A DNA stretch of 64,000 nt from Candidatus Liptonbacteria bacterium (GTDB lineage: Bacteria; Patescibacteriota; Minisyncoccia; UBA6257; 2-01-FULL-56-20). Shown here piece after piece: positions 46,156 to 64,000 of this stretch. The notes under the pieces were generated by a model. That model saw only the letters and a list, made by a program, of their open reading frames with translations, had not been told where the DNA came from and did not search any database. Where the stretch lies: contig JACQBP010000035.1 in the NCBI GenBank assembly GCA_016194445.1, positions 4,396 through 68,395 on the forward strand, written 5' to 3'. The first letter of the stretch is position 1. Each line of letters begins with the position of its first letter. Both the position numbers and the translations under genes were made by a program.

Positions 46156-46452
46156 ATGCCATCAATATTTAGAGAATTTTTAAATAAGTCTGGATTAAGC
46201 GATGACAAAATCAAAGAGTTTGAAAAAGAATTCGCGATAGTAATCTTGCTTAAAATCCTTAGCGAGACCTACGAAAAACTTTCGACAGATGACAGAGAAA
46301 AAGTTAAACAACTTTTCGACCAAAGAAAGATGGATGAGATAATTGAATTTATCGAAGGAAAATACCCAATCGAAGAGTGGAAACAACTCCTTGAATCAAA
46401 AATCGCGCCAATTTTTGAAAGCTACATAAAAGAGGTCGTATTCGGAAAATAA
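46156..46452 (+). CDS. hypothetical protein
   Basis: 98 aa, helical, charged. Confidence 0.35.
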   Translation: MPSIFREFLNKSGLSDDKIKEFEKEFAIVILLKILSETYEKLSTDDREKVKQLFDQRKMDEIIEFIEGKYPIEEWKQLLESKIAPIFESYIKEVVFGK

Positions 46453-46500
46453 TTTAGAATATCTAACCATATTCTATCGTCACCACAGCTTTCGCGATTA

Positions 46501-50159: not shown

Positions 50160-50429
50160 TCCCCGGTAGCTCAGTGGTAGAGCGGATCCCTGTCGGATAG
50201 GCAGCCTACAAGAGTAATCTTGTTTGAAAATTTCGGGATAACGGTGAACCCTTCGATACGCTTTGGCATATAAAGGTAACACCGTGGGAACCTCGCAATT
50301 TGCGGGGGCACCGTAGAGACTAGATACCGAAACATCCCAGTTGGGATGATGATATAGTCCGCGCCCTTTGGAAACTTTGGGATAAGTGTAAGGATAAGGT
50401 CGTAGGTTCGAATCCTACCCGGGGAGCCA
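50160..50429 (+). tRNA. tRNA gene interrupted by a group I intron; most likely tRNA-Asn(GUU)
   Basis: 5' exon (50160..50193) is TCCCCGGTAGCTCAGTGGTAGAGCGGATCCCTGT. 3' exon (50389..50426, plus CCA) is TAAGGATAAGGTCGTAGGTTCGAATCCTACCCGGGGAG+CCA. Joining them gives the anticodon loop CUGUUAA. U1:A72 and G73 match bacterial tRNA-Asn. Confidence 0.75.
50194..50388 (+). ncRNA. group I self-splicing intron (about 195 nt, small IC3-like) in the tRNA anticodon loop
   Basis: Conserved core elements are present: P-like AATTTGCGGG, R-like GTAGAGACTAGA and S-like GATATAGTCC. The 5' exon ends in U and the intron ends in G. A possible P1 pairs exon CUGU with intron GCAG. Confidence 0.7.
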
Positions 50430-52016
50430 GATGGGATGAGTGTCGCGAAAAGCGGCACTTTTCTCTTTATTGGTGGGCTTTTTCGCAGGTTCGAAAGTGC
50501 TTTTTTCGGTGTTTTTCTCGGAAAGCTCTTGTTGAACTCGATCATGTATGAGTTTAAAGGCTTTTTGGTAAGAAACCTCGACATTCTTGCCGTTTATCTT
50601 GGGGTTCGAAAATAGAAATGACAGCAGGGTTCGTTTTTGCTCAACCGTTCGCCGGGGTTTTAGATAAGTGTCGCGGGCCTCTTTTGCTATTTGAAGCACG
50701 GCCACACCCATCTCAAAATATTTGAGATTCGCGTTGCGATGGCGGTTTAAGCTGTCCAGCGTTTCTTCTTGCTCTTTTTTGTATTGCTGGAGTTTTTTGT
50801 CATAAAAATCGTGGCTGATTCGGCCGTCGATTTTATCGTCATAAAGTTTATCTATTCTCTGGGTGGCCGTCTGATATCTTCGTTCAAGTTCGGCCGATGA
50901 TTTTTCACGGAAGGCGATCTCGCCGGCATGGCTTTCTTTGAGTGCCTCTTGGACCCACGAGAGCATCCGTTCAATGCGTTTATCTTCGTGGCTTACTTCA
51001 ACCACCGATTTGGCCACTTGAGTATTGATATCTTCTTGCTTTACCCAATCATAATTCGGGCAGTTTTTGTAATGATTGCAGTGGCCGTACCAATGGCCTT
51101 TTTGTATTTCCCAAGTAATCGTTCCTCCGCATTCACTGCATCGGAATACGCTTTTAAACAGCGAATTGTGCTTTCGCATCCTCGGAGCTCCGTAACTGTG
51201 CAATCTATCCTGCACTTTTTGAAAAAGTTCTTTACTGATAAGCGGTTCGTGGTGACCCGGGGTGATCTGATTTTTCCATCGGTTCATGCCGTAGTAGAAC
51301 GGATCACCGAGAAGCTGATGGATTCGGGCATGGCTTACTTTGTGACTGGTACGCGAGCGCAGGCCTTTTTCATACATCGCATTGCAGAGTGTCTTGGTTG
51401 AGTATTGGCCGGATGCATATAATTCAAACATCTTTTTAATGAGTGGTGATTTTTCCTCGTCAATCACATGAACTTTATGTCCCTTCTCGCCGTCGGTTTT
51501 ATATCCGAGCGGAGGCTTTGTCGGCAACCATCCCTGCGCCAGTTTTTCTTTTTGCCCCTTTTTTACATTTTCAGAGAGCAGTCGGATATAGTATTCGGCT
51601 GTTGCCACTTTTACTCGCCACATAAACCACTCGTGCGATTTTGATTCTTTGTGCAGGGTGCATCCTTCTTTGACCAGATGAATTTTATGATTATCATCGG
51701 CCAGTATCCAATTATCAATAACCGGTACATCGGCGAAGTTTCTGGTGAGCCGGTCGGTGGTCTCTACGATGATGGTGTTGATTTTGTTTTTTACCACATG
51801 CGCCATCATCTCGCCGAAGATTTTTCGCTGGATTTTGCCGGCGGCCGACTCTTGGATGGCAAAAACTTTCGTGAGCTCGAAGTTATTGCGTTCGGCATAG
51901 TCGCGAAGGAATTTTTCTTGGGCCGGTAGTGAATAGCCGGTATCCTCTTGATCTTTTGAGGACACGCGGGCGTATCCCACGGTCTTTGGCATTTCGTTAT
52001 TGTTTATCATTGTCAT
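50415..52016 (-). CDS. large serine recombinase (integrase)
   Basis: N-terminal resolvase catalytic domain with VGYARVSSKDQ; recombinase domain; zinc ribbon CSECGG...HCNHY. The 3' end overlaps the tRNA 3' end by 15 nt. Confidence 0.85.
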   Translation of the reverse strand: MTMINNNEMPKTVGYARVSSKDQEDTGYSLPAQEKFLRDYAERNNFELTKVFAIQESAAGKIQRKIFGEMMAHVVKNKINTIIVETTDRLTRNFADVPVIDNWILADDNHKIHLVKEGCTLHKESKSHEWFMWRVKVATAEYYIRLLSENVKKGQKEKLAQGWLPTKPPLGYKTDGEKGHKVHVIDEEKSPLIKKMFELYASGQYSTKTLCNAMYEKGLRSRTSHKVSHARIHQLLGDPFYYGMNRWKNQITPGHHEPLISKELFQKVQDRLHSYGAPRMRKHNSLFKSVFRCSECGGTITWEIQKGHWYGHCNHYKNCPNYDWVKQEDINTQVAKSVVEVSHEDKRIERMLSWVQEALKESHAGEIAFREKSSAELERRYQTATQRIDKLYDDKIDGRISHDFYDKKLQQYKKEQEETLDSLNRHRNANLKYFEMGVAVLQIAKEARDTYLKPRRTVEQKRTLLSFLFSNPKINGKNVEVSYQKAFKLIHDRVQQELSEKNTEKSTFEPAKKPTNKEKSAAFRDTHPIWLPG

Positions 52017-52109
52017 TTTTGGTTAATTTTTTGGTTCGAAATCGACCTTTGGTCTCAAGACAACCCCTATGCCAATTCTCGATATCCATCAAGCTGATTT
52101 GCCCACAGC

Positions 52110-52646
52110 TCAAACACCGGTGTCTATCCAGTCAAAAAGTCGGTTTTCCGCATCTTCTGGATATTCTTTTCGAGCCAGCTTGAGCCGTACTTCGTAAGGG
52201 ACGAGATACCACCTTTCCATTGATGTCATTTTTGAGAGCGCTTCTTTGCTTAAATTCATTTCTTCTTTGGGCCTGCCTTCGACGCGATCCAGAAGCTCTT
52301 TTATGGCGCCGAGCTTCACATTGTCTTGCTGGCTTCCCATTAAAGCTACGAGCATTTCGTTGGCAAGCCGGAAGTTCTTCTCGCGAATTTGAACGCCGGC
52401 CTTGAGAAGCATCTGCATCGTTTCCCCGTGGATTGTATCCATTTCTTTCTCGTAAAGCTTGTATGTCTCGCAGAGCGTTCCCGTGTCTTTAAACCAATCT
52501 TTTGCTGTTTGCTCGGAAAACTTGCCTTTTCTACTTTTTTCAAACTGGGAATTCAAAGTTTCGGCAATGTCTTGGTAGGAATTGCCTTTATATTTCAGCT
52601 CTAACGCTTTCTTGTGGTATTCGGCTAAATGTTTGAGTTTCGGCAT
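52110..52646 (-). CDS. hypothetical HTH protein (element-encoded)
   Basis: GNSYQDIAETLN helix-turn-helix-like segment. Confidence 0.35.
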   Translation of the reverse strand: MPKLKHLAEYHKKALELKYKGNSYQDIAETLNSQFEKSRKGKFSEQTAKDWFKDTGTLCETYKLYEKEMDTIHGETMQMLLKAGVQIREKNFRLANEMLVALMGSQQDNVKLGAIKELLDRVEGRPKEEMNLSKEALSKMTSMERWYLVPYEVRLKLARKEYPEDAENRLFDWIDTGV

Positions 52647-52657
52647 GAAAAGTTGTG

Positions 52658-52855
52658 TTAAGTAGAGTGTTTGGCTGATTCATGGCGAATAGGTTGGACC
52701 GGCTTCCCCAGCACATACTCAATAATAATTATTGCCGCTTGAAGCCGTATTGATTCGTCTTTGCTTTCCAAAAGCGAAACCAGCACTTTTGTCGCTTTCA
52801 CTACATTTTTTCGTAGTATTTCTATCGCGATTTCTTCTGGCTTTTTATTTTTCAT
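52658..52855 (-). CDS. small hypothetical protein
   Basis: 65 aa, overlaps the next gene by 4 nt. Confidence 0.25.
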   Translation of the reverse strand: MKNKKPEEIAIEILRKNVVKATKVLVSLLESKDESIRLQAAIIIIEYVLGKPVQPIRHESAKHST

Positions 52856-53346
52856 GGTTTTGGCGTCATTGATTTTATTAATGTCTCGCGACCTCTTGCG
52901 AGCGCATCCAATGATTCCTGGTCTTTTTCTTGGGCGTATTGACGGCGGTATTTTAGATCATCGAGCGCGCGTTTCTTTTGGCAAAATTCTTCGTATGCCT
53001 TAAGGCCTGGGCCTACCGCCCAGCTCCAGCCCGGGTGTTCTGGCTTAACCCAGCGACGAGATATCGCTTTATTTCGAAGCAGATATTGGACGATACCGGC
53101 ATCGGTTAGGCCGGTAACATCGTTGCGAACTCGACGCGTGTCTTGGCTTTCGGGGAATTCTCGCTTGCCGATCTTAAAGGCGTTTATAACCGGCACCGTC
53201 TCTCCGTAGAAGCTCATTGGTCTTTCCAGCGGTTCTTTTTTCAGTTGCTCAAGCTCGGCCTCAAATTCTCGAATAGCTTTTCGATCTTCTTCGATATCCA
53301 AGTCGTACCCGACTTTTATTGGTTTTTGTTCTTCATTTAATTTCAT
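52852..53346 (-). CDS. hypothetical protein
   Basis: Charged helical protein; no recognisable motif. Confidence 0.35.
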   Translation of the reverse strand: MKLNEEQKPIKVGYDLDIEEDRKAIREFEAELEQLKKEPLERPMSFYGETVPVINAFKIGKREFPESQDTRRVRNDVTGLTDAGIVQYLLRNKAISRRWVKPEHPGWSWAVGPGLKAYEEFCQKKRALDDLKYRRQYAQEKDQESLDALARGRETLIKSMTPKP

Positions 53347-53349
53347 GGC

Positions 53350-54117
53350 TTAGACAATAAATTTAAGAAGTGTCTCAAGGCTATATTTCTTGAGCCATCC
53401 TTCTTTGACCGCTTCTTGCATCCGCTTATAGCCTTGCTTCAACCGCTCGTCCTCAAACGGCATAAGGTTTTTAGCGGCTCGCAGATTTCTTCGGATAAAA
53501 GTTTCCCATTGCCTTTTAGTGGTGAAATCAGGCTCCTCGGTATCCGCCCAAATTCCGATAATCTGAATATGGCGTTGCGGACTTTGATTGCACCACTCAA
53601 CGAATTCTTTTAAATCCATAGGCATATCCGCATTCACCGAAGGTGTTGCAATATCTTCTTTATTAATTTTCTTTATTGATTCTTCTTTGTTGCCATCCAT
53701 TGGCTTTTCTAAAATCACCGGATGACTTTTCATAACGCACCCAGTGCCTTTTCTATGAGAAAAATCATCTGGTGACTTTTCTTTTTTGGCATAGTATTTG
53801 GCGTTCAGTTGCCATAAATCGACGATCTTGTACTCAATGGTCGGCTTAGTTTTGCCGGCAACGCCGACTTTTTCTATCCAACCTCTTTGCACTAAAGTTT
53901 TCTGATACTTTCTGACGGTACCCGGAGCGATATCGAGTTTCTTTGCGATATTAATCGGCGACTCCCAGCAGGTGCCGGTCTCGCCGGCAACGCGCTTCAT
54001 GTAAAGATAAATTGCCTGCTCGTAGACGGTTGAATGGTTCACGATATAGTTCGGAATGATCGTGAAATATTTGCGGTCACCGCTTTTATCTATGATTTTG
54101 AAGGGATCACTTTTCAT
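53350..54117 (-). CDS. winged-helix DNA-binding protein (replication or regulatory function, element-encoded)
   Basis: wHTH-like segment PGTVRKYQKTLVQRGWIEK. Confidence 0.35.
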   Translation of the reverse strand: MKSDPFKIIDKSGDRKYFTIIPNYIVNHSTVYEQAIYLYMKRVAGETGTCWESPINIAKKLDIAPGTVRKYQKTLVQRGWIEKVGVAGKTKPTIEYKIVDLWQLNAKYYAKKEKSPDDFSHRKGTGCVMKSHPVILEKPMDGNKEESIKKINKEDIATPSVNADMPMDLKEFVEWCNQSPQRHIQIIGIWADTEEPDFTTKRQWETFIRRNLRAAKNLMPFEDERLKQGYKRMQEAVKEGWLKKYSLETLLKFIV

Positions 54118-54288
54118 GGCTTTGTTGTTCGGCGATTAAATCCTCGCAGTAGCACTGCATCAGCGTGTCGTAAAAGCCCACGAGACAAAATGCGATGTCG
54201 TGCAAATCCTGATCATTGACCTCTTCGCCAAAATCTTCTTTGAGAATGACGCGGAGCTTCTCCAGCGTTTCTGGTTTTAAGTTCACGG

Positions 54289-54549
54289 CTATTCGTGGGC
54301 ATAAATCCTGACTTTGGCGAGTTTAAGCTGGTTGAAAAATGCTTGCGGCTCGACCTTGAGTTCGCGCTTCCAATACTTGGCGACAAGCTCATCCAGCTCG
54401 TCGCTTTTCTTGAACGCGAATAGGACTTTATGCGGGTTTGTCCGATCGCAGACCTCGAGCGAATCGGGAATAAATAATAAAAGCACCGCCACCAACGCTA
54501 AATCGGCGGATTTATAAACTTCGGTTTGTTCAGTTGTTTTCATCGTCAT
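54289..54549 (-). CDS. small hypothetical protein
   Basis: 86-aa ORF. Confidence 0.3.
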   Translation of the reverse strand: MTMKTTEQTEVYKSADLALVAVLLLFIPDSLEVCDRTNPHKVLFAFKKSDELDELVAKYWKRELKVEPQAFFNQLKLAKVRIYAHE

Positions 54550-54651
54550 TATTCGCTAAACCGATGTTCCGTTTCGGGGCCTCACCCAAAACAAAACACA
54601 CTCCCATGTTAAGGGAGTGCATTCATTCAATTTTCAGTTATGAATTGATTT

Positions 54652-55353
54652 TTAGGGCTTAAAATACCATCCTTCCTGCTTTTGATTGAAAATTACATCT
54701 TTTTTGAAATGAAGTTTTAATAGGTTGTGGAGCTCGCTTACATACTTTGCGATTGTAATTCTGGGCGTGGATTTTCTTCTGTCCGCATTGATAATCGCGT
54801 CTTGTATGTCATCTCTTGTGAGCATCCGATTCGGGTGATCCATAAAAAGTCGGCATAAATCTTTTATCTGACTTCGCATTTCAATCATTTCGCCTTGATA
54901 TCGGATCGTTCCATCGGAATAGCCGGCAAGGCCTTTTATTTCAATCTCTGGCTTCAAATCTTGAACATACAGCAAGTCCTTTTTGTGCCGGCGCGTAGGA
55001 GCTGTACTGAAGATTTCCTCATCAGATTTCTTGGGTGGCGCAACCAGATCCATCAATTTTTGCCGTTCCTTATACAAAAGCATCTTTATCGGTCTAATCA
55101 AATAAAAACAATCTTGATCCTCTTCAAAATTGCCAATAATTTTCTTCTTTTTGAGGTCTTTAAGCCACCGTCTCTGTTCGTCCCAAGAGTGGAGCGGAAA
55201 AGGGTTGAGCCAGACCTTTTTTCGTTTAGAGTAAAATTCGGGATCATCCTCGCCGGCCACTTCAACTCTTTTGATAACCTCGTTGATAAAATCAATTTTT
55301 CTTTGGGCCTCCCGCCTGATTTTTACTACATCATCATTAATAGTCATTGTCAT
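54652..55353 (-). CDS. hypothetical protein
   Basis: 233 aa; the C-terminal part may be winged-helix-like. Confidence 0.35.
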   Translation of the reverse strand: MTMTINDDVVKIRREAQRKIDFINEVIKRVEVAGEDDPEFYSKRKKVWLNPFPLHSWDEQRRWLKDLKKKKIIGNFEEDQDCFYLIRPIKMLLYKERQKLMDLVAPPKKSDEEIFSTAPTRRHKKDLLYVQDLKPEIEIKGLAGYSDGTIRYQGEMIEMRSQIKDLCRLFMDHPNRMLTRDDIQDAIINADRRKSTPRITIAKYVSELHNLLKLHFKKDVIFNQKQEGWYFKP

Positions 55354-55440
55354 AGTGTTAAATCCATTGTGTCAGATTTTGCCACTTTTGAAAATAAATA
55401 CGAGCGGACGGTAACAGTTTCAATGAGCTAAAGCGACGGA

Positions 55441-56070
55441 TTGTCGGAAAAAGAAATAAGTGATATGGTAAAAAATATTTCCATAGCTTCTATGCCCAAA
55501 CCACAACTTACCTACAATCCCAATTATTATGACGGAACAAACCTCATGCAGCTGAGACCGCGCGAGGTTGCTTTCAAAACATATAAAATGCGCGACGGTA
55601 CTCTGATAGGCTTATTTCAGGGAAGTCGTGGAGTGCGACCAGACATTGATTTCGTTATAAAAATTCTTATTCCCGGATCCGATAAAAAATTAAGACCACC
55701 AACTCACACCTTTTGGGTTGTGGATCTATTACTTAAAATCCCGCAATACAAGAACGAGGTGAAAGAAATTGTGCAATATTATATAGATTATTACGAACGG
55801 ACGGTTCCTTTTGCTTCTGTTCAGGAAAGAAATAATTACCAGCTTGAAACCGTTGAGGAAATTACAACTCGTTATGCGCAACTGGAGCAACCATATACAC
55901 TTTCACTCGATTATGTCGCGACGGTCATTGAACTTTTTTGTAAGAACGAGAAAATCAACCCCGGCGCATATATGTTCCGAAATCTCTTGCTCGTGTTGAG
56001 AGATTATATTGACGGCAATAAGCACTATACAGAAGTGCTTCAGGCCGCAATGCCTGGCTACAGAAATTAG
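55441..56070 (+). CDS. hypothetical protein
   Basis: 209 aa; no recognisable motif. Confidence 0.35.
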   Translation: MSEKEISDMVKNISIASMPKPQLTYNPNYYDGTNLMQLRPREVAFKTYKMRDGTLIGLFQGSRGVRPDIDFVIKILIPGSDKKLRPPTHTFWVVDLLLKIPQYKNEVKEIVQYYIDYYERTVPFASVQERNNYQLETVEEITTRYAQLEQPYTLSLDYVATVIELFCKNEKINPGAYMFRNLLLVLRDYIDGNKHYTEVLQAAMPGYRN

Positions 56071-56711
56071 CTTGCTGTCTCAAAAATCTTTTTTACTAGC
56101 CCTGTGCGAGCATAGAATGCCCGAGTAATAGGGCGACGCTTTCCAGTTCGCGGATTAATACCACCAATGCCTTTTGTGCGAGCCTGTATCCACTTGCCGT
56201 CTTTCCCGGTTAAGGCATCAAAACCCTTCTTAATCAGTTTGTCGCGGATAAAATCGTAGTCGGCCTTGATTTCTTTTATCAATTCACCGTCCTCGGCGAA
56301 ATCCAAGCTTGCCACGCTCAGCAACTCCGCTTTCTTGGAATTCATGCCATTCCATTTTACGGCACAAAAAATAATAGTTTTAAATTTTGCCCAAACATGA
56401 CTTTCAAAAAACGAATGATCCTTTAATTCTTCGGGGTGGACCATTGTTATCGCCATCGTTTCTTTTGGTACGAGTTTATTGTTCACATAATGAAAGGCGA
56501 CGGATTTGAGTTCGTAAGTAAGCCCATTCGGTGCTTTTGAGACATTTGTTTGTAGCCCCGCCAACCGTTCTAAGACAAGACCCTTCCAGCCTTTATTTTG
56601 CTTTCCATTCTTAAACGAATTGATACCGAATTGCAAAGCAAGATCGGCAAGGTCTCTACCAATATATTTCTTCAGATTTTTTATCGCAGTTGCCCGAGTT
56701 ACAATTTTCAT
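56067..56711 (-). CDS. MutH/Sau3AI-family GATC endonuclease (restriction subunit)
   Basis: Similar to MutH. NKGWKGLVLERLAG aligns with MutH DKGWIGVLLEIWLG, TYELKSVAF with GVELKTIPV, and the C-terminal ITRAFYARTGLVKKIF with RGFYLKKNF. Translationally coupled (ATGA) to the upstream methyltransferase. Confidence 0.75.
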   Translation of the reverse strand: MKIVTRATAIKNLKKYIGRDLADLALQFGINSFKNGKQNKGWKGLVLERLAGLQTNVSKAPNGLTYELKSVAFHYVNNKLVPKETMAITMVHPEELKDHSFFESHVWAKFKTIIFCAVKWNGMNSKKAELLSVASLDFAEDGELIKEIKADYDFIRDKLIKKGFDALTGKDGKWIQARTKGIGGINPRTGKRRPITRAFYARTGLVKKIFETAS

Positions 56712-58177
56712 GCCTCTTTGATAAGTTTATTGTTTAAATTGCGATCCAATTCCTCGAATCGTTTAATAGATAGCTCTAAAAATTTTGATTCGGTATCAAT
56801 ACCTATAAATTTTCTTCCATGAAGATAGGCCGCAATGCCGGTAGTGGAACTTCCTGTAAATGGGTCAATGACCAGATCACCTTTATTCGTGCTTGCGAGT
56901 ACTATTCTTTTTAACAAATCTTCTGGTTTTTGTGTAGGGTGTTTTCCAAACTTTTTTTCTATCGGCTTGGGAGTGCCCATTGACCAAACCGAGCGCATTT
57001 GGAGCCCTGGCTTTTTTAAATTATCCTCCGTCCAATGGCCGTTTTTCATCAGATCATAATTGAATGTGTGTTTCGCCTTTCTTTCTTTTCTTGCCCAAAT
57101 TAAAGTTTCGTGACTTGCGGTAAAGTATCGGCAACTAAGATTCGGTGACGCGTTTGGTTTAAACCATGCGATGTCGTTTAAGATATGATATCCGAGTGCC
57201 TGTAGAGCATGGCCGCACTGGTAAATTGAGTGATAGGTACCGCTAACCCAGAGAGTACCGTGCGGCTTCAAAACTCTTCGACACGCCTCCATCCATTTGT
57301 AATGAAAATCATAGTCATCTTTAAACCCCTTACTCTTGTCCCAATCTCCCTTATTCACGCTAACCATTCGTCCGGCGTGAACCGTAAAGCCGCCGTTGGA
57401 AAGGTTGTAGGGTGGATCGGCAAAAATCATATCCACAGAATTTTCTGGAAGTCGTGCTATCACATCTAAGCAATTTGCTTGAAAGAGTTTGAATTTTGGT
57501 TTTTCGTAATAGGGCTTTAGTGCTACTGTACCTTGGTCTGTTTTTTCGATAACAATTTCGGGGATATTTACACTTGCTTCTTGAATCACATCCAGCACTA
57601 TCCCTTGGATCGAGACATCTCGTCCGTTTCTAAATATAAGCGGCTCCATGCTTTTGTTTGCTGGTTGTAAGCGAATATGTCCGCGTTCTCTATAAAATTT
57701 CTTTAGCGTTGCTTCGTGGTTATCGATGAGGGCGACTACCTTTTGTCCGTTATCGGCAACAGCTTGTTGCTTTACCAATACAACATCGCCATTATTGATT
57801 CCTTCATCGATCATACTATCGCCGAGCACGCGCAGGGCATAGAATTCACCGCTTCGTGGTAGCTTGTTTTGAGGGATCGCAATAGTTTCCTTTTCTTGTA
57901 TTGCCTCTATCGGCTGGCCCGCGGCTATGGTGCCCAAAAGAGGAATTTTTACCAGTTTAGCGGTTTTTTCTATTAAACTAATGCCACGCGCTGAATTATC
58001 GTTTTTTGCAACGAATCCTTTATCTGCCAAAACTCCGATATGCTGGTGGATCGTTGAAAGAGAGGAGAGTCGGAAGTGTTTTTTGATTTCTTCCAAAGTC
58101 GGTGAAAAGCCCTTCTTGTTGATATAAGACTCGGTGTAGTCGTAGATTTGTTTTTGTCGCTTGGTTAGTGTGGCCAT
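56708..58177 (-). CDS. LexA-like repressor (wHTH plus S24 peptidase) fused to a DpnA-like GATC N6-adenine DNA methyltransferase
   Basis: The N-terminal 200 aa align with E. coli LexA, including the AAG cleavage site and GDSM/K catalytic residues (LTKRQKQIYDY, GTIAAGQP, LRVLGDSMIDEGINNGDVVLV, TLKKF). The C-terminal 285 aa align with M.DpnIIB/DpnA: DMIFADPPYNLSNGG, VSVNKGDWDK, NLSCRYFTASHETLIWARK, GKHPTQKPEDLLKRIVLAST and VIDPFTGSSTTG. Confidence 0.8.
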   Translation of the reverse strand: MATLTKRQKQIYDYTESYINKKGFSPTLEEIKKHFRLSSLSTIHQHIGVLADKGFVAKNDNSARGISLIEKTAKLVKIPLLGTIAAGQPIEAIQEKETIAIPQNKLPRSGEFYALRVLGDSMIDEGINNGDVVLVKQQAVADNGQKVVALIDNHEATLKKFYRERGHIRLQPANKSMEPLIFRNGRDVSIQGIVLDVIQEASVNIPEIVIEKTDQGTVALKPYYEKPKFKLFQANCLDVIARLPENSVDMIFADPPYNLSNGGFTVHAGRMVSVNKGDWDKSKGFKDDYDFHYKWMEACRRVLKPHGTLWVSGTYHSIYQCGHALQALGYHILNDIAWFKPNASPNLSCRYFTASHETLIWARKERKAKHTFNYDLMKNGHWTEDNLKKPGLQMRSVWSMGTPKPIEKKFGKHPTQKPEDLLKRIVLASTNKGDLVIDPFTGSSTTGIAAYLHGRKFIGIDTESKFLELSIKRFEELDRNLNNKLIKEA

Positions 58178-58276
58178 AAACGATTGACTCGGTGTATTTA
58201 TTTTCTTACACTATCAGTATACCGAAGATTTGCCGAAGATGTAATAGCCCACTTATCCACATGCAGAGAAATAGCA

Positions 58277-58294
58277 AACAAGTCGACAAACTTG
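58277..58294. promoter_or_regulatory. ACAAGT-N6-ACTTGT palindrome (with central GTCGAC) in the divergent promoter region; candidate operator
   Basis: Only strong palindrome in the 170-bp region between the LexA-methyltransferase start and the 1205-aa gene start. Confidence 0.35.
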
Positions 58295-58347
58295 TCTATA
58301 AACTCTACGGCCTCACTTCGGAGGAGTTAAGATTGTAGAACAAAACC

Positions 58348-61300
58348 ATGCCGGAAAACGATAAAGAAATACCAGTTCCATATGAGAAGCCACTAATTTT
58401 AAGCGAGAAGCAAAAATGGCTTTGCTCACATTTGGATGCACTCAACGGCATTGAAAATTTTTGTCCAAACGCAATCCCATCCGATCTTTTTGTAGGCGCA
58501 CTGTCTTTGGTTAAATCAAAAAACAGAAAGACAAACCCTGATTGGATGGCACAGGCAGCTCATTCTTTGCGAGAAATATTATATGGAGTGGGGCAGGTCA
58601 GACGACCCAAAAATAAACTTATCCTGGCTTGGCAAGTTTTCTTGGGAAAAGGTGAAAATTCTCTGACTCGAAGAGCGAGGATTGAAAATTTATTGAAAGT
58701 ATACCAAGAGGAACAGCGGGCTTCAGAATTAGCTCATGTTTTAAATGATTTACATTTTATATTTACCAATATCGCTCATCATTTGCAGGATAGTCAAAAA
58801 CATAAGTATGTAAAAAAGAAACTAATAAAAATAGGGATTTCAAATCCAGAACCTTCCTTGATAGTAACTGAAGCTGTATTTGAACAATTGATGGATACTC
58901 TGGAAAATGCTTGGGCACAATCTATTCCTCGACAACTTACCATTCATGAACAAATCGATTCTCTGTTAAGCCGCGATCCAAAATTAGTCAGCAAAGGAGT
59001 TTTGAATGTTCTTTTATCTTTTAACCCCGACGCGCGGTACTACTTTTATACCAAAGCCGATGAGCGTTGGCTTGGTTGGCTTTGGGGAAATGGTTTTCTG
59101 GATGTTATCAAACAAAAAGCAGAAGATCCTACGCGCTATGGCTATAGAACACCAGAAGTTAATTACCTCGTAAAAGTTTCTGAAAAAGAGCCGGCAAAGG
59201 TGGTTGATATTATGCTGGCCGTACCGATTTCTACGGAGAACTTTAATCCAGAAGTGGTGGACAGGTTCTTACGCATTTGTAGTGGCTTGCCAGCACCAGA
59301 ACTCAAACGGATGGTAAAGAAAATTCGTGATGATGGATTGGTGCGACTTATGGGTGCATTCAACGATTGGGGTTTTGAGTATGAAAAAATGCTTAAAACT
59401 TTAACTGATGTCAATGACTTTGATAGCGTTCTTGTTCTTGCAGAGGCAGTACTTTCCATTCGTACAAAAAAAGAAGCCGAACAAACTTCGCGCGGCTTTT
59501 TGTCCGACAATCCTTTCTACTTCAAAGAACTAAGCTATACAAAAGTATTCGAATACTTACTCAAGGTGGATGAGAAAAACATTGAAAATGCACTCACCTT
59601 GGTAACCAGCACGATGAAAGAGGTTGTACTCTTTGGAGAAAAAGAAGGCAAGGATGAAGTGTTTAAGGTTTATGATAGCTACTTTTTATTAGATGTAGAT
59701 TTTTTTGAGCTTGAACTTACCGAAAAAGACAGGCTTTCGCACAGAGACGATGTTAAAAATCTCGCAGCTGTTATTAAGCATTATGCAGAGCAAACCATCG
59801 GGAAGAAATGTGACGATGTCGAATCGGCAGTTAAGCTGTATAACCAGTATTTTAATCATCTCCCGGATAGCCGCTCTATGTGGCGTCTCCGATTATTTGT
59901 ATTGAGTTTGTGCCCCGGCGCATTTAAAGAAGAGCTTAAAAAGGCATTCTTCCGATTGTTTGAGATTGAGCGTTACTATAACGAGATTATTTCTGGCACA
60001 GAATATTTGAAGGCGCTCCGTATTGGATTTCCTGTTTTATCTGATGATGATAAGCGTAAATATGTAAAACAGGTTATAGATTACTTTGTAAAAAAAGACC
60101 AAGAAAAAGAGAACGAAAAAGAAAATTGGCATATAGGGTATGGCTCGAGAATTATTTCAGTAATAGCCGATCAGCTTACTGAAGAAGAAAAACAAACAGC
60201 CAAAGACGCTGGATTTACGCTCGATCCTAACTATAAGCCAGAGCCATCCATAAAGATGGGTGGTTTTGCTGGTAGCATAAGACCAAGGGGACCGATAATC
60301 CAAGAAGAATTTGGAAATCTCTCGATAACTGATATTGCAGGGAAATTAAGAGTTGAATGGACGCCAGAAGAGTTGAGAAAAGAAAATACAAACGAGGATT
60401 TTCATAATCCCTTAAATGCAGAGGGTGTCGGCGAAATGTTGCGAATTGATATAACTAAGCGTCTACAAGATTATATAAATAACGCAAACATCTTTTTTGA
60501 ACGAGATAAATTAGACCAGCACTATACTTATTCTTTTCTGCGAGGCATACAAGAGGTTCTTCGAGGCAATAAAACCGAGGTCAGTGGTATAAATTGGGAT
60601 AATTTGATAGCTCTTTGCGTCACGATAAAGAAATCTGGCGAGACAAAACCCTTCGATAGCGGAAATCGCGAGCGCGATACTTTTGATGCGTGGCTTTCTG
60701 GCTGGACAGGCGTTCATTCTGCTATGACAGATGTTGTCCAAGAACTACTGACCGAAGAAAGGGGTGCTAAAATCGACTTTCCTAAATATCGCGATGACCT
60801 GTTTGGGGTCATAGGATATCTCCTTTCTTATCCCGATCCAGTTCCCGCCGACGAAGAGCCGAAAACAGCAAAAATGACTACAACGCCTCCTGGCGCAAAA
60901 GAACAAATGGTAAGCGATCCTTATTCGATGGCAATCAACACGGTACGGGGTAGAGCATTTCAAGCTTTTGCGTTGTTTATGTATCAAGACGGGAAGAAGT
61001 TCTCTAAAAACGAAAAAATAAAGATTTCCCTCGATGTTAAGGGACTGTACGAGGCTGTTCTCAAAAAAGAAAATACCCGGGCCCTTATGTTTATGTTCGG
61101 GCATTATCTGCCGTCGTTCTACTTTCGAGATAAAGAGTGGATGCAGAGCCTTTTCTCGCAGATTTTTTCTGCAGAGCCAACAAAGAAAAATCTCTATACG
61201 GCCGCATGGGAGGGCTATGTTTCAGCAAATCTTTATGATGAGATATTCTTCAACCCAGATACTCAGAAGTTATACGAACGGGGTCTTGCTCTGACAGATT

Positions 61301-61965
61301 CGGACTATCCACAACAAAAGCATTTCAAAGAACCGGACGAAGGCGTTGCTGTTCATGTTGCGCTTGCCTTCATGCACTTCTCGAAATTTGATTTTGACCA
61401 CGATCTATTCAAAAAATTCTGGAGTATGCCAAACCCGGAATATCACAAAGAATTTATCTCCTTTATCGGTCGCCACTCTATTTCACGAAAATCGGCTGCG
61501 GAATGGATAAAATACAATAAAGTCGATATTGAGAAACTTAAAAAGTTCTGGGATTGGGCGCTTAAAAATTGCAACATAGATGCGCTTACCGGCTTTGGTT
61601 TCTGGATTAATATGGAGCGTAGCCCATTGGATACAAAATGGCTCGCAAGTCACGCACGCCAAACGCTTGAGAAAACAAAGGGATATGTTGAGTGGGAATA
61701 TGGATTAATGCGCTCACTTGCGGCATTTGCAAAAGAGGCGCCGGAAGACACGCTTGCCATTTTGCGCGCTCATCTCCTTGAAGAGGTTGCAAAACATGAG
61801 CCAGTGAGAACATGGCTTCACATGGATGCCGAAGTTTATGACACCTTCAAAGAACTCTATAAAAATGAAGCGACAAAAGAAGGGGTGCGCACGCTTGTTA
61901 ACGACCTCTTGCCTTATCGTAATGGGATGTTTTGGGGGTTGAAATCTATCTTGGAAGAAAAATGA
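58348..61965 (+). CDS. large (1205 aa) uncharacterised alpha-helical protein, element-encoded
   Basis: Long uninterrupted ORF with no P-loop or nuclease motif found. Its stop overlaps the start of the PrimPol-helicase (ATGA). Confidence 0.5.
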   Translation: MPENDKEIPVPYEKPLILSEKQKWLCSHLDALNGIENFCPNAIPSDLFVGALSLVKSKNRKTNPDWMAQAAHSLREILYGVGQVRRPKNKLILAWQVFLGKGENSLTRRARIENLLKVYQEEQRASELAHVLNDLHFIFTNIAHHLQDSQKHKYVKKKLIKIGISNPEPSLIVTEAVFEQLMDTLENAWAQSIPRQLTIHEQIDSLLSRDPKLVSKGVLNVLLSFNPDARYYFYTKADERWLGWLWGNGFLDVIKQKAEDPTRYGYRTPEVNYLVKVSEKEPAKVVDIMLAVPISTENFNPEVVDRFLRICSGLPAPELKRMVKKIRDDGLVRLMGAFNDWGFEYEKMLKTLTDVNDFDSVLVLAEAVLSIRTKKEAEQTSRGFLSDNPFYFKELSYTKVFEYLLKVDEKNIENALTLVTSTMKEVVLFGEKEGKDEVFKVYDSYFLLDVDFFELELTEKDRLSHRDDVKNLAAVIKHYAEQTIGKKCDDVESAVKLYNQYFNHLPDSRSMWRLRLFVLSLCPGAFKEELKKAFFRLFEIERYYNEIISGTEYLKALRIGFPVLSDDDKRKYVKQVIDYFVKKDQEKENEKENWHIGYGSRIISVIADQLTEEEKQTAKDAGFTLDPNYKPEPSIKMGGFAGSIRPRGPIIQEEFGNLSITDIAGKLRVEWTPEELRKENTNEDFHNPLNAEGVGEMLRIDITKRLQDYINNANIFFERDKLDQHYTYSFLRGIQEVLRGNKTEVSGINWDNLIALCVTIKKSGETKPFDSGNRERDTFDAWLSGWTGVHSAMTDVVQELLTEERGAKIDFPKYRDDLFGVIGYLLSYPDPVPADEEPKTAKMTTTPPGAKEQMVSDPYSMAINTVRGRAFQAFALFMYQDGKKFSKNEKIKISLDVKGLYEAVLKKENTRALMFMFGHYLPSFYFRDKEWMQSLFSQIFSAEPTKKNLYTAAWEGYVSANLYDEIFFNPDTQKLYERGLALTDSDYPQQKHFKEPDEGVAVHVALAFMHFSKFDFDHDLFKKFWSMPNPEYHKEFISFIGRHSISRKSAAEWIKYNKVDIEKLKKFWDWALKNCNIDALTGFGFWINMERSPLDTKWLASHARQTLEKTKGYVEWEYGLMRSLAAFAKEAPEDTLAILRAHLLEEVAKHEPVRTWLHMDAEVYDTFKELYKNEATKEGVRTLVNDLLPYRNGMFWGLKSILEEK

Positions 61966-64000
61966 TCAATATAACCGAGCAACAACTTGAGTTATTTATG
62001 TCCTTATTTCGCGGCCGCGAAGATGTTTATGCGCGTCGCTGGGAAAAAGGTGATAAGTCAGGCTATAGCCCGGCGTACGATTTTAATTGGGACGAGTTCA
62101 TGTCGCATAAACGCCGAGGCGGATCAATGAAGGATTTCGATAATAAAACATTGCTTCCTCTTGCTAGAGAAGTGGTTAAAAAGCATCTTTTGGGACAGCT
62201 TGTTGTCGGAATTTATCCAATACTTACCGAAAATACTTCGTATTTTATTACGGCTGACTTCGATGGGGAAACTTGGAATAATGATGCAAAAGCGTTTCTT
62301 CGTATTTGCAAGGAAGAGTGTATCAATGCCTATCTGGAGCGCTCTCGATCAGGTAATGGCGGACATGTTTGGATATTCTTTTCTGAACCGTACCCATGCT
62401 ATAAAAGCCGGCAAATTGTTCTTGAATTAATACGCCGCGCATTTCATATCTCCGAATTTGAGAAAGAAGTTAGTTTTGACCGCTTATTTCCAAACCAAGA
62501 TACTCTTACGAAAAATGGGTTCGGTAATTTGATAGCTTTACCATTACAGGGAAGATCATTCGAACACGGAAATGCGTTATTTGTTGATGCTGCCACGAAC
62601 AAACCCTTCTCGGATCAATGGGCCTTTTTACAAAATGCGAAGCGCCACACACCTCAGGAATTAGAAACAATGCATAGCAAGCTTTTTAATACCGCAGATA
62701 AACCAATTCAATCTTTACCAAAAGACAATAGCTTCCAAATTACGGTCAGCAATCAAATAACATTGCCGCGCGCACAACTTACGCCAACGATTATTCATTT
62801 CCTTAAAAACGAACTTAATTTTTTAAATACCGAATATCTAACCAAGCGACGACTCGGTAAATCAACTTATAAGATACAAAAATATTTCAAATTAATTGAT
62901 GAGGCGGGAGATACCATTTCGTTACCGTGTGGTTTCTTAACCCAACTGAGTGCGTTTTTGGATCAAAATCATATTGCTTATGCTTTAACGGAAAACCATG
63001 CTCTTCTGGATGAAGCGACTTTTAATAACGACATTAAGCTAACACCCGCGCAGACAAAAGTTGTAGAACAAGCCACTGGCTATAATCAAGGAGTTATCGT
63101 GGCACCTTCTGGAAGTGGTAAAACGATAATGGGACTGGAACTAATCGCCCGGAGAAAACAGCCGGCCTTAATTCTTGTACACCGCAAACAAATTCTTGAT
63201 CAGTGGGTTGACCGCATACAAGCATTTTTGGGTATCGCAAAAACACATATCGGCCAGTATTCTGGTGTCAAGAAGAAAATCGGTAAGCAAATCAGCGTTG
63301 GCCTACTTCAAAGCTTTGCAAGAAAAGGTGATTTATCCGAGCTACAAAATTCTTTCGGCACAATAATTGTTGACGAATGCCATCACATCCCCGCATCAAC
63401 TTTTCGAGAGGTTATTGCCCAGTTGAATCCACAATATCTCTATGGGCTTACGGCTACGCCCAAACGCAAACATAACGACGAAAAGCTTATCTATGTTTAT
63501 ATTGGCGACATTGTTGCTCAAATGGCCGTATCTGATGTGCCTATTCACGAAACAAAAGTAAGTGTGTACACGCCAGAAGTTTTAATACGAACCACCAATT
63601 TAGAAATACCATTCAAATTTACCACCGACTACTTTCAATTACTGGCAAAAATCATTTCTTGCGATACTGGGCGTAATCGCTTAGTTGTCGATAACATACT
63701 TAGCGAGGTTGAGAAAAATAGAAAAATCCTTGTGTTGAGCGAACGAAAAGAACACCTCGAGATTTTAAACATGTATCTTAAAAGTAAATGCGAAACTATT
63801 GTTATTTCTGGAGATGATTCTGCTCGAGCGCGGAAATCAAAACTTGCACAAATTCAAAGCGGTCATTATCAGGTTATTCTTTCAACGGGGCAATTTTTTG
63901 GTGAAGGTATCGATATTCGAGGCACAACCTGTCTTGTACTGGCTTTTCCTTTCTCGTTCGAAGGCAAGCTCATCCAGTATATGGGGCGCCTACGCGATAT
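61962..64000 (+). CDS. PrimPol (archaeo-eukaryotic primase-polymerase domain) fused to an SF2 DEAH-box helicase; partial, runs off the window
   Basis: Manual translation: PrimPol motifs GIYP...YFITADFDGE and SRSGNGGHVWIFF; helicase motif I APSGSGKT, motif II IIVDECHH, motif III LYGLTATP. Confidence 0.65.
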   Translation, partial: MINITEQQLELFMSLFRGREDVYARRWEKGDKSGYSPAYDFNWDEFMSHKRRGGSMKDFDNKTLLPLAREVVKKHLLGQLVVGIYPILTENTSYFITADFDGETWNNDAKAFLRICKEECINAYLERSRSGNGGHVWIFFSEPYPCYKSRQIVLELIRRAFHISEFEKEVSFDRLFPNQDTLTKNGFGNLIALPLQGRSFEHGNALFVDAATNKPFSDQWAFLQNAKRHTPQELETMHSKLFNTADKPIQSLPKDNSFQITVSNQITLPRAQLTPTIIHFLKNELNFLNTEYLTKRRLGKSTYKIQKYFKLIDEAGDTISLPCGFLTQLSAFLDQNHIAYALTENHALLDEATFNNDIKLTPAQTKVVEQATGYNQGVIVAPSGSGKTIMGLELIARRKQPALILVHRKQILDQWVDRIQAFLGIAKTHIGQYSGVKKKIGKQISVGLLQSFARKGDLSELQNSFGTIIVDECHHIPASTFREVIAQLNPQYLYGLTATPKRKHNDEKLIYVYIGDIVAQMAVSDVPIHETKVSVYTPEVLIRTTNLEIPFKFTTDYFQLLAKIISCDTGRNRLVVDNILSEVEKNRKILVLSERKEHLEILNMYLKSKCETIVISGDDSARARKSKLAQIQSGHYQVILSTGQFFGEGIDIRGTTCLVLAFPFSFEGKLIQYMGRLRD

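What the first reader, a model, noticed from the sequence alone, without database searches (positions are those of the whole stretch)
50415..64000. Integrated mobile element anchored at an intron-containing tRNA gene
A large serine recombinase gene overlaps the last 15 nt of the tRNA. Gene content downstream switches to restriction-modification, small DNA-binding proteins, a giant orphan protein and a PrimPol-helicase, with no structural phage genes in view. Use of an intron-containing tRNA by a serine integrase in a reduced genome is noteworthy. The element's far end lies outside the window.
Basis: partly seen in the sequence, partly recalled or inferred. Interest (0 to 1): 0.7.

Follow-up and report, generated by a model that had tools for sequence, protein, structure and literature searches.

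The report
Serine-integrase defence island at tRNA-Asn
A roughly 14 kb mobile island carrying anti-phage genes sits at the very end of an asparagine tRNA gene in a tiny-genome (Patescibacteria) bacterium, put there by a serine integrase from a large, undescribed family that targets tRNA ends.

Summary
Window 50160-50429 is a tRNA with a 195-nt group I intron. It is tRNA-Asn(GUU) with the intron at 35/36, a class already described in Patescibacteria, not Thr as ARAGORN calls it. A full-length large serine recombinase (LSR, 50415-52016, minus strand) overlaps its last 15 nt.

In 50 of 63 usable metagenome loci the same LSR family reads into the 3' end of a convergent tRNA, mostly Asn. Far ends of related elements carry a conserved arm (CCCAATCAAAAGTTCGAAA...) in which GTTC lies 19 nt from GAGC, against 14 nt in the tRNA. 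That is the 5-bp attP/attB offset known for serine integrases. The crossover therefore maps to GAGC (50424-50427), so little or no tRNA repeat is expected.

A close relative (L177) places the missing far end about 650 nt beyond the window, giving an element of about 14.2 kb. This is predicted, not observed.

Cargo is defence-like: a Sau3AI/MutH-like restriction enzyme with a LexA-fused methylase, a HEAT-like 1205-aa protein (not an orphan) and an AEP-TOTE helicase. The intron is incidental. tRNA targeting by a whole serine-integrase family is the new part.

The parts
50160..50429 (+). tRNA-Asn(GUU) gene with encoded CCA. Exon 1 is 50160-50193, the group I intron 50194-50388 (195 nt, position 35/36), exon 2 50389-50429. 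It serves as attL (B arm plus core).
   Evidence: PMC13011429
50405..50427 (+). attL recognition region. The T-arm motif GGTTCGAA (50405-50412) has its GTTC 14 nt upstream of the core GAGC (50424-50427). The inferred crossover dinucleotide GA corresponds to tRNA positions 71-72.
   Evidence: 5-bp ZD-motif rule in PMC3783163. The crossover position is inferred from relatives.
50415..52016 (-). Large serine recombinase (integrase), 533 aa. The ORF crosses the att core: ...HPIWL is element-encoded (P' arm), and the last codons PG-stop are read from the tRNA acceptor and T-stem.
52110..52646 (-). 178-aa protein conserved next to the LSR in the closest relatives. It has weak HTH/small-terminase-like similarity and is a possible accessory DNA-binding factor.
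52658..52855 (-). 65-aa protein, conserved in the closest relatives, with weak small-terminase/HTH-like similarity.
52852..53346 (-). 164-aa protein of unknown function, with no homologue in the related loci examined.
53350..54117 (-). 255-aa wHTH protein resembling phage/plasmid replication initiators (DnaD/O-like N-terminus).
   Evidence: phrog_270, E 6e-9
54289..54549 (-). DUF5659 protein, the conserved partner of this LSR family. It is found in 26 related loci, 1.4-4.5 kb upstream of the LSR on the same strand. It is a candidate regulator or directionality factor (speculative).
54652..55353 (-). 233-aa protein with a weak C-terminal winged-helix (Trans_reg_C-like) domain. It marks the end of the core shared with L177.
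55441..56070 (+). 209-aa protein of unknown function.
56067..56711 (-). MutH/Sau3AI-like type II restriction endonuclease.
56708..58177 (-). Complete LexA (wHTH plus S24 with an AAG cleavage site and the Ser/Lys dyad) fused to an N6_N4 (DPPY) DNA methyltransferase.
58348..61965 (+). 1205-aa all-alpha HEAT/ARM-like solenoid. It belongs to a widespread uncharacterised family found in defence islands, and its stop overlaps the start of the next gene (ATGA).
61962..64000 (+). AEP-TOTE primase-polymerase domain fused to an SF2 (ResIII/DEAD) helicase. It is 707-719 aa and its stop lies at window-equivalent 64121, outside the window.

Best explanation
The region from about 50425 to a predicted about 64650 is one integrative genetic element of roughly 14.2 kb, inserted by its own large serine recombinase at the extreme 3' end of the host tRNA-Asn(GUU) gene. 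The host is a Patescibacteria MAG labelled Candidatus Liptonbacteria.

Mechanism, inferred by analogy with LI, SPbeta and phiC31 integrases:
- LSR dimers bind attB. Its left half is the tRNA T-arm and acceptor, with the GGTTCGAA motif close to the centre.
- LSR dimers also bind attP on the circular element. Its P arm carries the same motif 5 bp further out.
- The sites synapse, both are cut at a central dinucleotide inside GAGC (acceptor end and discriminator), and strands are exchanged by subunit rotation.
- The element's P' arm then supplies the last nucleotides, the CCA and a terminator hairpin, so the tRNA stays intact.

The integrase ORF runs across the crossover. Its disordered C-terminal tail is therefore short when integrated (PG-stop, read from the tRNA). 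It would be 25-45 aa longer (D[VF]RTF motif, read from the P arm) on an attP-type junction.

Behind a conserved core (LSR, small DNA-binding proteins, a Rep-like protein, DUF5659) the element carries exchangeable defence cargo: a type II R-M with a LexA-fused methylase, a HEAT-like giant protein and an AEP-TOTE helicase.

Shown here: the anatomy, the family-wide tRNA association, the conserved P arm with the +5 offset, tandem arrays and cargo turnover. Inferred: the chemistry, the exact dinucleotide, present-day activity and the position of the far end in this genome.
For: LSR identity: Pfam and PHROG hits, and an AF2 model matching full-length serine integrases with a zinc ribbon and coiled coil.

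Family-wide association: 2417 homologues, mostly Patescibacteria. Of 63 non-duplicate loci with enough sequence, 42 have an ARAGORN-called convergent tRNA at the LSR 3' end and 8 more have a tRNA-type junction. Thirty of the 42 are Asn. Others are Gln, Ser, Asp, Arg, Val and Ile.

Reading frame: the frame into the tRNA is conserved (WL is the complement of GAGCCA), with overlaps of 13, 15, 40 or 42 nt.

Far ends: the P-arm 19-mer CCCAATCAAAAGTTCGAAA matches 12 times with 3 or fewer mismatches, against about 0.5 expected. Nine of the 12 lie on the expected strand and side of an LSR, or at the far end of L177, with GTTC-N19-GAGC. This matches the published 5-bp ZD-motif shift between attP and attB.

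att pairs: L102 attL and attR share about 50 nt starting at GAGC. Other pairs share only GAGC(A/C).

Tandem arrays: L113, L123 and L162. In L113 an extra LSR-bearing element of about 6 kb lies between the tRNA-Asn and the family LSR, whereas the related L105 has the family LSR directly at the tRNA.

Cargo turnover: the core is conserved at 72-87% nt while cargo differs.

Far end here: L177 is 87% identical in nt to window 58207-64000 and has the P arm with GAGC about 530 nt after the helicase stop.

Composition: element GC 42.1% against host 45.7%.
Against: - The far att site of this particular element is not in the window, nor in the 291 extra bases recovered. Its position is extrapolated from L177.
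- No empty-site sibling of this genome was found. The nearest RNR relatives (82-85% aa) lose synteny right after the RNR gene.
- No circular or excised form was seen: there are no terminal repeats in complete contigs, and the family is almost absent from IMG/VR.
- The exact crossover dinucleotide rests on where attL and attR stop being identical, not on experiment.
- Beyond L177's attR lie another HNH gene and a methylase-like ORF. The tRNA locus may therefore be a larger accretion zone, and element limits could be blurred.
- No transfer function (relaxase, capsid) is visible, so how the element moves between cells is unknown.
Confidence: 0.8

Rival explanations
1. An old, fixed island: the LSR once inserted the DNA, but the region is now an immobile, vertically inherited defence island next to tRNA-Asn, and the recombinase is a relic or has been domesticated.
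For: No excised form, empty site or far att site could be shown for this genome. The LSR-tRNA arrangement is very common in Patescibacteria, which could also reflect long residence.
Against: - The LSR is full length, with the catalytic RVSS motif and all domains.
- P arms are conserved across elements whose LSRs are only 40-50% identical, which implies selection on the site.
- Cargo differs between elements with 81-83% identical LSRs.
- Tandem insertions are seen.
- The element's GC content lies below the host range.
Confidence: 0.1
2. Two things side by side: only the roughly 5 kb core (LSR to the 233-aa gene, 50.4-55.4 kb) is the mobile element, and the R-M, 1205-aa and AEP-helicase genes are a host-resident defence island that merely adjoins it.
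For: Nucleotide homology among relatives often stops just past DUF5659, and many contigs break there. The 1205-aa and AEP-helicase families also occur away from this LSR family: L179 has no recombinase in view, while L173, L174 and L178 carry LSRs of other families.
Against: - No P-arm/att junction lies between 52 and 64 kb.
- In L177 the DUF5659 and 226-aa core genes, an R-M module, the 1205-aa gene and the AEP-helicase lie in one block that ends in a canonical P arm plus GAGC.
- Relatives place R-M modules in the same position.
Confidence: 0.07
3. A small temperate phage or phage satellite whose structural or hijacking genes lie beyond the window.
For: The integrase best matches PHROG 95, 'integrase'. 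The 178-aa and 65-aa proteins weakly resemble small terminase subunits. Some elements with the same LSR family carry Zot and a rolling-circle Rep, and so look inovirus-like.
Against: - No capsid, portal, tail, large terminase or Zot gene lies in 13.6 kb.
- The predicted far end is only about 650 nt beyond the window.
- The family is almost absent from IMG/VR.
- It shares at most 29% identity with any GenBank phage integrase.
Confidence: 0.03

Closest known systems
Large serine integrases of temperate phages and islands (Listeria A118/LI, SPbeta SprA, phiC31, Bxb1, TP901-1; CcrAB of SCCmec)
   Same: - The domain set is the same: resolvase catalytic domain, recombinase domain, and zinc ribbon with a coiled coil.
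- The int gene sits at the element edge.
- The att logic is the same, with the distal motif 5 bp closer to the centre in attB than in attP.
- The identical core is minimal.
   Different: - Sequence identity to any phage integrase in GenBank is 29% or less.
- The target is the 3' end of a tRNA gene rather than a protein-coding gene.
- The ORF itself crosses the crossover point.
- The host is Patescibacteria, and the cargo is defence genes rather than a phage genome.
tRNA-targeting genomic islands and prophages using tyrosine integrases (P4-like and similar)
   Same: Both insert at the 3' part of a tRNA gene, with the element restoring the gene. The integrase gene lies next to the tRNA. Tandem arrays form at one tRNA. 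Cargo is adaptive or defence genes.
   Different: The recombinase family and chemistry differ. Tyrosine systems leave a direct repeat of roughly 15-50 nt of the tRNA. Here most elements share only GAGC(C/A), and the far end is recognised by a conserved P arm instead.
Predicted S-Int islands in t(m)RNA genes (Mageeney et al. 2020, TIGER/Islander; PMC7192596)
   Same: They are computational predictions of serine-integrase elements in tRNA genes. That survey found 14 of 297 S-Int islands there, noted that such use had not been reported before, and said it needed experimental proof.
   Different: Here the evidence is a whole family: dozens of loci, one preferred isoacceptor, and defined attL and attR anatomy with the LSR-specific 5-bp offset. 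The phylum was scarcely sampled in that survey of complete genomes. Whether any of their 14 cases belong to this family was not checked.
Group I intron-containing tRNA-Asn/Asp genes of Patescibacteria (Nakagawa et al. 2026, PMC13011429)
   Same: The intron position (35/36), the U before the 5' splice site, the G at the intron's 3' end, the ARAGORN miscall as Thr(UGU) 33/34 and the phylum all match.
   Different: That paper does not mention recombinases or mobile elements. Here the intron-bearing gene doubles as an attachment site, but the intron plays no evident part in that.
Integration-dependent immunity of mycobacteriophages (attP inside a gene, so integration changes the protein's C-terminus; Broussard et al. 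2013, from memory)
   Same: The att core lies inside an ORF, so the integrated and excised states encode different C-terminal tails.
   Different: There the affected gene is the repressor and the integrase is a tyrosine recombinase. Here it is the serine integrase's own disordered tail, and no functional consequence has been shown.

Membership tests
Large serine recombinase (serine integrase) | N-terminal resolvase-type catalytic domain with the nucleophilic serine | tested here: met
   PF00239, E 1.3e-20. R17-V18-S19-S20...Q23 are invariant in a 24-sequence alignment. PDB profile hits to the TP901-1 and TnpX catalytic domains.
Large serine recombinase (serine integrase) | Recombinase domain, then a zinc ribbon domain carrying a coiled-coil insertion | tested here: met
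   PF07508, E 7e-20. PF13408 is only weak (E 0.0036, below its cutoff). The AF2 model shows beta-hairpins at 299-313 and 469-483 flanking long helices at 346-452. Foldseek matches full-length SPbeta (E 2.6e-20), phiC31, Bxb1 and LI integrases.
Large serine recombinase (serine integrase) | att sites in which the distal (ZD) motif lies 5 bp closer to the centre in attB half-sites than in attP half-sites | tested here: met
   GTTC-N14-GAGC occurs in the tRNAs (attL B arm, including window 50406). GTTC-N19-GAGC occurs in the conserved far-end P arms of relatives. The rule is taken from PMC3783163. For this window only attL is visible.
Large serine recombinase (serine integrase) | Catalyses attP x attB recombination at a 2-bp crossover | not testable with these tools
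   Needs an in vitro or in vivo recombination assay.
Integrative genetic element / genomic island at a tRNA gene | Integrase gene at the element edge next to the target gene, with the target gene left intact | tested here: met
   The LSR stop lies inside the tRNA 3' end. The tRNA has a perfect 7-bp acceptor stem, a G73 discriminator and CCA.
Integrative genetic element / genomic island at a tRNA gene | Second att site at the far end | not testable with these tools
   It is absent from 50430-64000 and from L001 up to window-equivalent 64291. It is present in relatives (L102, L103, L123, L127, L131, L132, L135, L144, L177). It is predicted at about 64650 here.
Integrative genetic element / genomic island at a tRNA gene | Presence/absence polymorphism between related genomes | tested here: inconclusive
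   Not obtainable for this genome. In relatives, L113 carries an extra element of about 6 kb between the tRNA-Asn and the family LSR, compared with L105. Cargo also differs between elements with similar cores.
Prophage | Capsid, portal, large terminase, tail or (for inoviruses) Zot/coat genes | tested here: not met
   None found with Pfam or PHROGs in 50.4-64 kb.
Integrative conjugative or mobilisable element | Relaxase, coupling protein or type IV secretion genes | tested here: not met
   No such Pfam or NCBIfam hits. An oriT could not be tested.
Patescibacteria tRNA-Asn with a group I intron at 35/36 | Intron in the anticodon loop after U35 and ending in G; the spliced product matches intron-less tRNA-Asn(GUU) | tested here: met
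   RF00028 scores 34.9 bits (E 2e-7 locally), below the gathering score of 50. Self-splicing is not testable here.
TOTE conflict system (Pfam label) | AEP-TOTE primase-polymerase domain | tested here: met
   PF22548, E 5.9e-83, over residues 8-236, fused to ResIII/DEAD/Helicase_C.
TOTE conflict system (Pfam label) | Other components of the system | not tested
   No description of the system was found in the paper library. Neighbours of homologues vary: the 1205-aa protein in the window and L177, other genes in L178, none in L179.
Type II restriction-modification system | Adjacent methyltransferase and endonuclease genes | tested here: met
   N6_N4_Mtase, E 5e-58, with a DPPY motif. MutH-family PF02976, E 7e-9. 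Sau3AI NCBIfam, E 3e-13, below the equivalog cutoff. Specificity was not determined.

The most novel reading that the evidence does not exclude
Because the att core lies inside the integrase ORF, the enzyme is made with a different C-terminal tail in each state. It has a short tRNA-encoded tail in the integrated state and a 25-45 aa P-arm-encoded tail with a conserved D[VF]RTF motif on attP-type junctions. This state-dependent tail could tune the integrase's stability or directionality. If so, a tRNA-specific serine-integrase family would have a built-in sensor of whether it is integrated. That family assembles defence islands by serial insertion across Patescibacteria.
Probability: 0.25. Interest if true: 0.75.

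Novelty: new variant of a known kind. Interest (0 to 1): 0.6.

Why it matters
- Serine integrases are thought to avoid tRNA genes. The one large survey that saw a few cases called them unreported and unproven. This locus opens onto a whole family, hundreds to thousands of members, aimed at tRNA 3' ends. The family has a readable attB/attP grammar that can be tested directly in vitro.
- It shows how ultra-small, host-dependent bacteria exchange restriction and other defence modules at one hotspot.
- It gives a practical rule for finding the ends of such elements: look for the P arm, not for a tRNA repeat.
- It offers new integrases whose natural target is a short, highly conserved tRNA sequence, which may interest genome engineers.
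- It is a reminder that intron-split tRNA-Asn genes are missed or misnamed by standard tools, which hides these islands from tRNA-based island finders.

Tried and rejected
- Search for a second copy of the tRNA 3' end in the window and in the 291 extra bases from the Logan contig: none found.
- Synteny through the RNR gene: the closest relatives diverge right after the RNR gene and their contigs end there. No tRNA or LSR is seen, so no empty site could be obtained.
- First crossover model, inside the T-loop. It was based on an 18-nt tRNA remnant in L131 and on the L162 junction. It was dropped when attL/attR pairs showed that identity starts only at GAGC and that the acceptor-like stretch at the far end is conserved among elements, not host-derived. 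The L131 remnant lies about 90 nt outside the real attR and is probably an older scar.
- 'Own attP' reading of LSRs that abut a P arm. It cannot be fully separated from tandem insertion. Second LSRs plus a tRNA downstream in L113, L123 and L162 favour tandem arrays.
- Circular (excised) contigs: no terminal repeats.
- IMG/VR: only one real relative, so there is no viral signal.
- Literature on the 'TOTE' system and on LexA-methylase fusions: nothing found.
- Rfam on the noncoding stretch after the helicase gene in L177: only spurious hairpin hits.
- The 1205-aa protein: no Pfam, PHROG, PADLOC or NCBIfam hit. The fold search gives only generic HEAT-repeat matches.

Full report
**What is at the coordinates**

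Standard tRNA and Rfam scans miss the gene. Intron-aware ARAGORN finds a 75-nt tRNA at 50160-50429 interrupted by 195 nt. A local Rfam scan recognises the insert as a group I intron: RF00028, 34.9 bits, E 2e-7, with the conserved P3/P7 core. This is below the gathering score of 50.

ARAGORN names it Thr(UGU) with the intron at 33/34. Shifting both boundaries by 2 nt gives Asn(GUU) with the intron at 35/36: exons 50160-50193 and 50389-50429, intron 50194-50388. Three things favour Asn:
- The spliced Asn version is 89% identical to intron-less tRNA-Asn(GTT) genes from related loci, and at most 75% to any other isoacceptor.
- The P1 hairpin CUGU|C/GGCAG places the U.G wobble at U35 (read from the sequence).
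- Exactly this class, and exactly this ARAGORN miscall, has been described and shown to self-splice in Patescibacteria (PMC13011429).

The intron-bearing tRNA is therefore real, but it is a known kind.

**The recombinase**

ORF 50415-52016 (minus strand, 533 aa) has Resolvase and Recombinase domains and a weak zinc-ribbon hit. It matches PHROG 95 'integrase' over its whole length. Its AF2 model (pLDDT 78) has the full large-serine-integrase layout, including a zinc ribbon split by a long coiled coil. The best PDB matches are full-length SPbeta, phiC31, Bxb1 and LI integrases.

The ORF ends ...CAT CCC ATC TGG CTC CCC GGG TAG. TGG CTC is the complement of the tRNA's GAGCCA, and TAG is the complement of CTA in the T-stem. 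The last 30 residues are predicted to be disordered.

**Host**

Upstream genes are ordinary core genes: ATP synthase, Obg, BacA and a class II RNR. The nearest RNR relatives are Patescibacteria MAGs. The 1205-aa protein is 100% identical to an NCBI protein of a Candidatus Liptonbacteria MAG on a 70,218-bp contig.

**Is it a mobile element? Evidence from relatives**

The LSR has 2417 database homologues at E <= 1e-10, largely from Patescibacteria. I fetched 80 metagenome loci with a family profile.

After removing duplicates, 63 loci have enough sequence after the LSR gene:
- 42 have an ARAGORN-called tRNA convergent with, and overlapped by, the LSR 3' end.
- 8 more have a tRNA-type junction. 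These are partial tRNAs at contig ends, or intron-bearing tRNAs that ARAGORN missed.

Thirty of the 42 are Asn. Four of those carry introns, two of which are miscalled Thr. The rest are Gln, Ser, Asp, Arg, Val and Ile. The reading frame into the tRNA is conserved (a C-terminal HPIWL motif), and overlaps cluster at 13, 15, 40 or 42 nt. Many contigs break within a few hundred bases of this junction.

A DUF5659 gene lies 1.4-4.5 kb upstream of the LSR, on the same strand, in 26 loci.

Between loci, nucleotide homology covers the core of about 3.4 kb and stops at the tRNA on one side and just past DUF5659 on the other. Elements whose LSRs are 81-83% identical to the window's share the core but carry different cargo. 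L164 and L165 have Type III-like R-M. L162 has an AlwI R-M with a LexA-D12 methylase.

A census of 137 cargo ORFs from 20 loci is dominated by methylases, ResIII helicase-nucleases and endonucleases. It also includes Prim-Pol, LexA/S24 and, in a few ORFs, Zot plus a rolling-circle Rep.

The window element has lower GC (42.1%) than any host stretch of the same length (44.3-46.6%).

**Tandem arrays**

In L113, L123 and L162 a second, different LSR sits at the tRNA. The family LSR is displaced by 6-9 kb.

L113 and L105 share the host flank beyond the tRNA at 76% nt identity. L105 has the family LSR directly at the tRNA, whereas L113 has an extra element in between. This is a presence/absence comparison, although not for the window genome itself.

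Flanks of other displaced LSRs carry GmrSD-HNH, RT-trypsin and SMODS genes. The tRNA locus therefore grows as a defence island by serial insertion.

**att-site anatomy**

A search for a repeat of the tRNA 3' end largely failed. What recurs instead, 7-11 kb from the LSR on the tRNA-sense strand, is a conserved arm: CCCAATCAAAAGTTCGAAA..GTCC....GC followed by GAGC.
- The 19-mer matches 12 times with 3 or fewer mismatches, against about 0.5 expected.
- Nine of the 12 lie where a far end should be.
- In these arms GTTC is 19 nt from GAGC. In the tRNAs, GGTTC of the T-loop is 14 nt from GAGC.

A motif shared by attB and attP but 5 bp closer to the centre in attB is the published signature of large serine integrase sites (PMC3783163).

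Comparing attL with attR of the same element shows where identity begins:
- In L102 identity starts at GAGC and runs about 50 nt through the tRNA terminator.
- In L127, L135, L126, L143 and the L177/window pair only GAGC plus zero to four more bases are shared.
- The acceptor-like bases left of GAGC at the far ends are conserved among elements from different hosts, so they belong to the element.

The crossover is therefore at or next to GAGC, the last acceptor pairs and the discriminator. In the window this is 50424-50427. Registering the shared motif at +5 makes GA the common central dinucleotide (inference).

My earlier T-loop model was wrong. The 18-nt tRNA remnant in L131 lies about 90 nt outside the true attR.

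**Consequence for the integrase ORF**

The ORF crosses the core. HPIWL is encoded by the element's P' arm. The remaining codons come from the tRNA when the element is integrated (PG-stop here; RDLDSNQEPSP-stop in L164). They come from a P arm at attP-type or tandem junctions, giving 25-45 extra residues with a recurring D[VF]RTF motif. For L177 this would read WLALLNDFRTFDWA... (my translation of the L177 sequence printed). Whether this matters functionally is unknown.

**Where this element ends**

Nothing resembling a P arm lies in 50430-64000.

An identical Logan contig adds only 291 bases. L177 carries an AEP-helicase 92% identical in protein. It is 87% identical in nucleotides to window 58207-64000, and at lower identity (76%) through the end of the Logan contig. 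L177 contains:
- DUF5659 and a 226-aa core gene;
- IS fragments;
- an AlwI R-M with a LexA-D12 methylase;
- the 1205-aa gene;
- the AEP-helicase;
- about 500 nt of noncoding sequence;
- a canonical P arm plus GAGC at 12657-12699.

By homology the window element should end near 64650, giving about 14.2 kb. This is a prediction.

**Cargo**

- 56067-56711 is a MutH/Sau3AI-like endonuclease.
- 56708-58177 is a complete LexA fused to an N6_N4 (DPPY) methylase. The LexA part has the wHTH, the AAG cleavage site, and the GDSM serine and lysine.
- The same idea recurs with other methylases and nucleases in L162, L177 and L178.
- The 1205-aa protein has 270 homologues. A close homologue folds as a HEAT/ARM-like solenoid (pLDDT 84, with karyopherin and CAND1-type matches). 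Family members sit beside Type III and Type IIL R-M, TIR plus HD genes, and other LSRs.
- The last gene is Pfam AEP-TOTE fused to an SF2 helicase. Its family is very large (at least 8000 homologues at E <= 1e-20, the scoring cap of the search) and occurs with varied neighbours.
- The helicase is SF2 rather than SF3/SF4, and the family occurs alone in a 1.4-Mb contig. I therefore lean towards a conflict-system role rather than the element's replicase. This is inference.
- The 255-aa core protein resembles replication initiators. It is the better candidate for episomal replication.

**Comparison with what is known**

The element works like a classical serine-integrase island. The integrase passes every membership test I could run. 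What differs is the target.

Mageeney et al. (PMC7192596) found t(m)RNA use by 44.5% of tyrosine-integrase elements but only 14 of 297 serine-integrase elements. They noted that such use had not been reported before and needed proof. I found no paper on serine recombinases at tRNA genes in Patescibacteria. The intron paper does not mention recombinases.

The integrase is at most 29% identical to any GenBank phage integrase. The family is nearly absent from IMG/VR.

**Verdict**

The intron-tRNA is already known, and the island type is a known kind. The family-wide tRNA-end specificity, the readable attP/attB grammar and the ORF-spanning crossover make it a new variant worth experimental follow-up.

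Noticed in passing
window 56708-58177 (-); also L162 2838-4529, L177 4537-6213, L178 3326-4930: A complete LexA repressor is fused to the methyltransferase of a type II R-M system. The LexA part has the wHTH, the S24 protease with an intact AAG cleavage site and the Ser/Lys dyad. The fusion recurs with different methylase classes (N6_N4, D12) and different nucleases (MutH/Sau3AI-like, AlwI, BglII). This suggests DNA-damage-responsive control of R-M expression. No description was found in the paper library.
   Followed up: partly
window 58348-61965 (+) and 61962-64000 (+): The 1205-aa HEAT-like solenoid gene and the AEP-TOTE/SF2 helicase gene overlap by ATGA. They stay together in L177, yet each family also occurs without the other elsewhere. 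They may be a two-gene conflict module, or two separate ones.
   Followed up: partly
L177 12190-12560 (its first ~100 nt align with the end of L001, 15775-15944, i.e. window-equivalent 64122-64291): The noncoding stretch between the AEP-helicase gene and the far att site folds far better than shuffled controls (z = -3.9) and ends in a terminator. No Rfam family matches. A short hairpin (TTTCAGAT..TGACA/TGTCA..TCTGAAA) right after the helicase stop is conserved in L001, L177 and L178. This may be an RNA partner of the primase-polymerase.
   Followed up: partly
L177 12689-12759: A 28-bp near-perfect hairpin starts at the GAGCCA core of the far att site. As a result a tRNA-3'-end-like GGGAGCCA also appears on the opposite strand.
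   Followed up: no
L131 11-28 versus 117-160: A perfect 18-nt copy of the tRNA-Asn 3' end lies about 90 nt outside the P-arm-type attR. It is probably the scar of an older insertion by a different integrase.
   Followed up: partly
related loci in the cargo census (alignment A3): Two ORFs with Zot and two with a rolling-circle Rep (REP_ORF2-G2P) occur next to LSRs of this family. Some members therefore look like integrated filamentous phages, while others carry Prim-Pol with an AAA_25 domain.
   Followed up: no
L123 15892-20181 and L145 5079-9265: The same cargo block of about 4 kb (77-79% nt) sits next to LSRs of different families in two contigs. This indicates module exchange between elements.
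   Followed up: no
window ~45000-46500: Cumulative GC skew peaks here, and the sign of the skew flips. The stretch 45.4-46.5 kb holds only small ORFs and has low GC. It may be a replication landmark or simply a change in strand bias.
   Followed up: no
L002 12290-13087 and L003 5183-5963: The two closest RNR relatives (85% and 82% aa) both have contigs that end about 800 nt after the RNR gene, with unrelated sequence. The spot downstream of the RNR gene may be variable in those genomes too.
   Followed up: no
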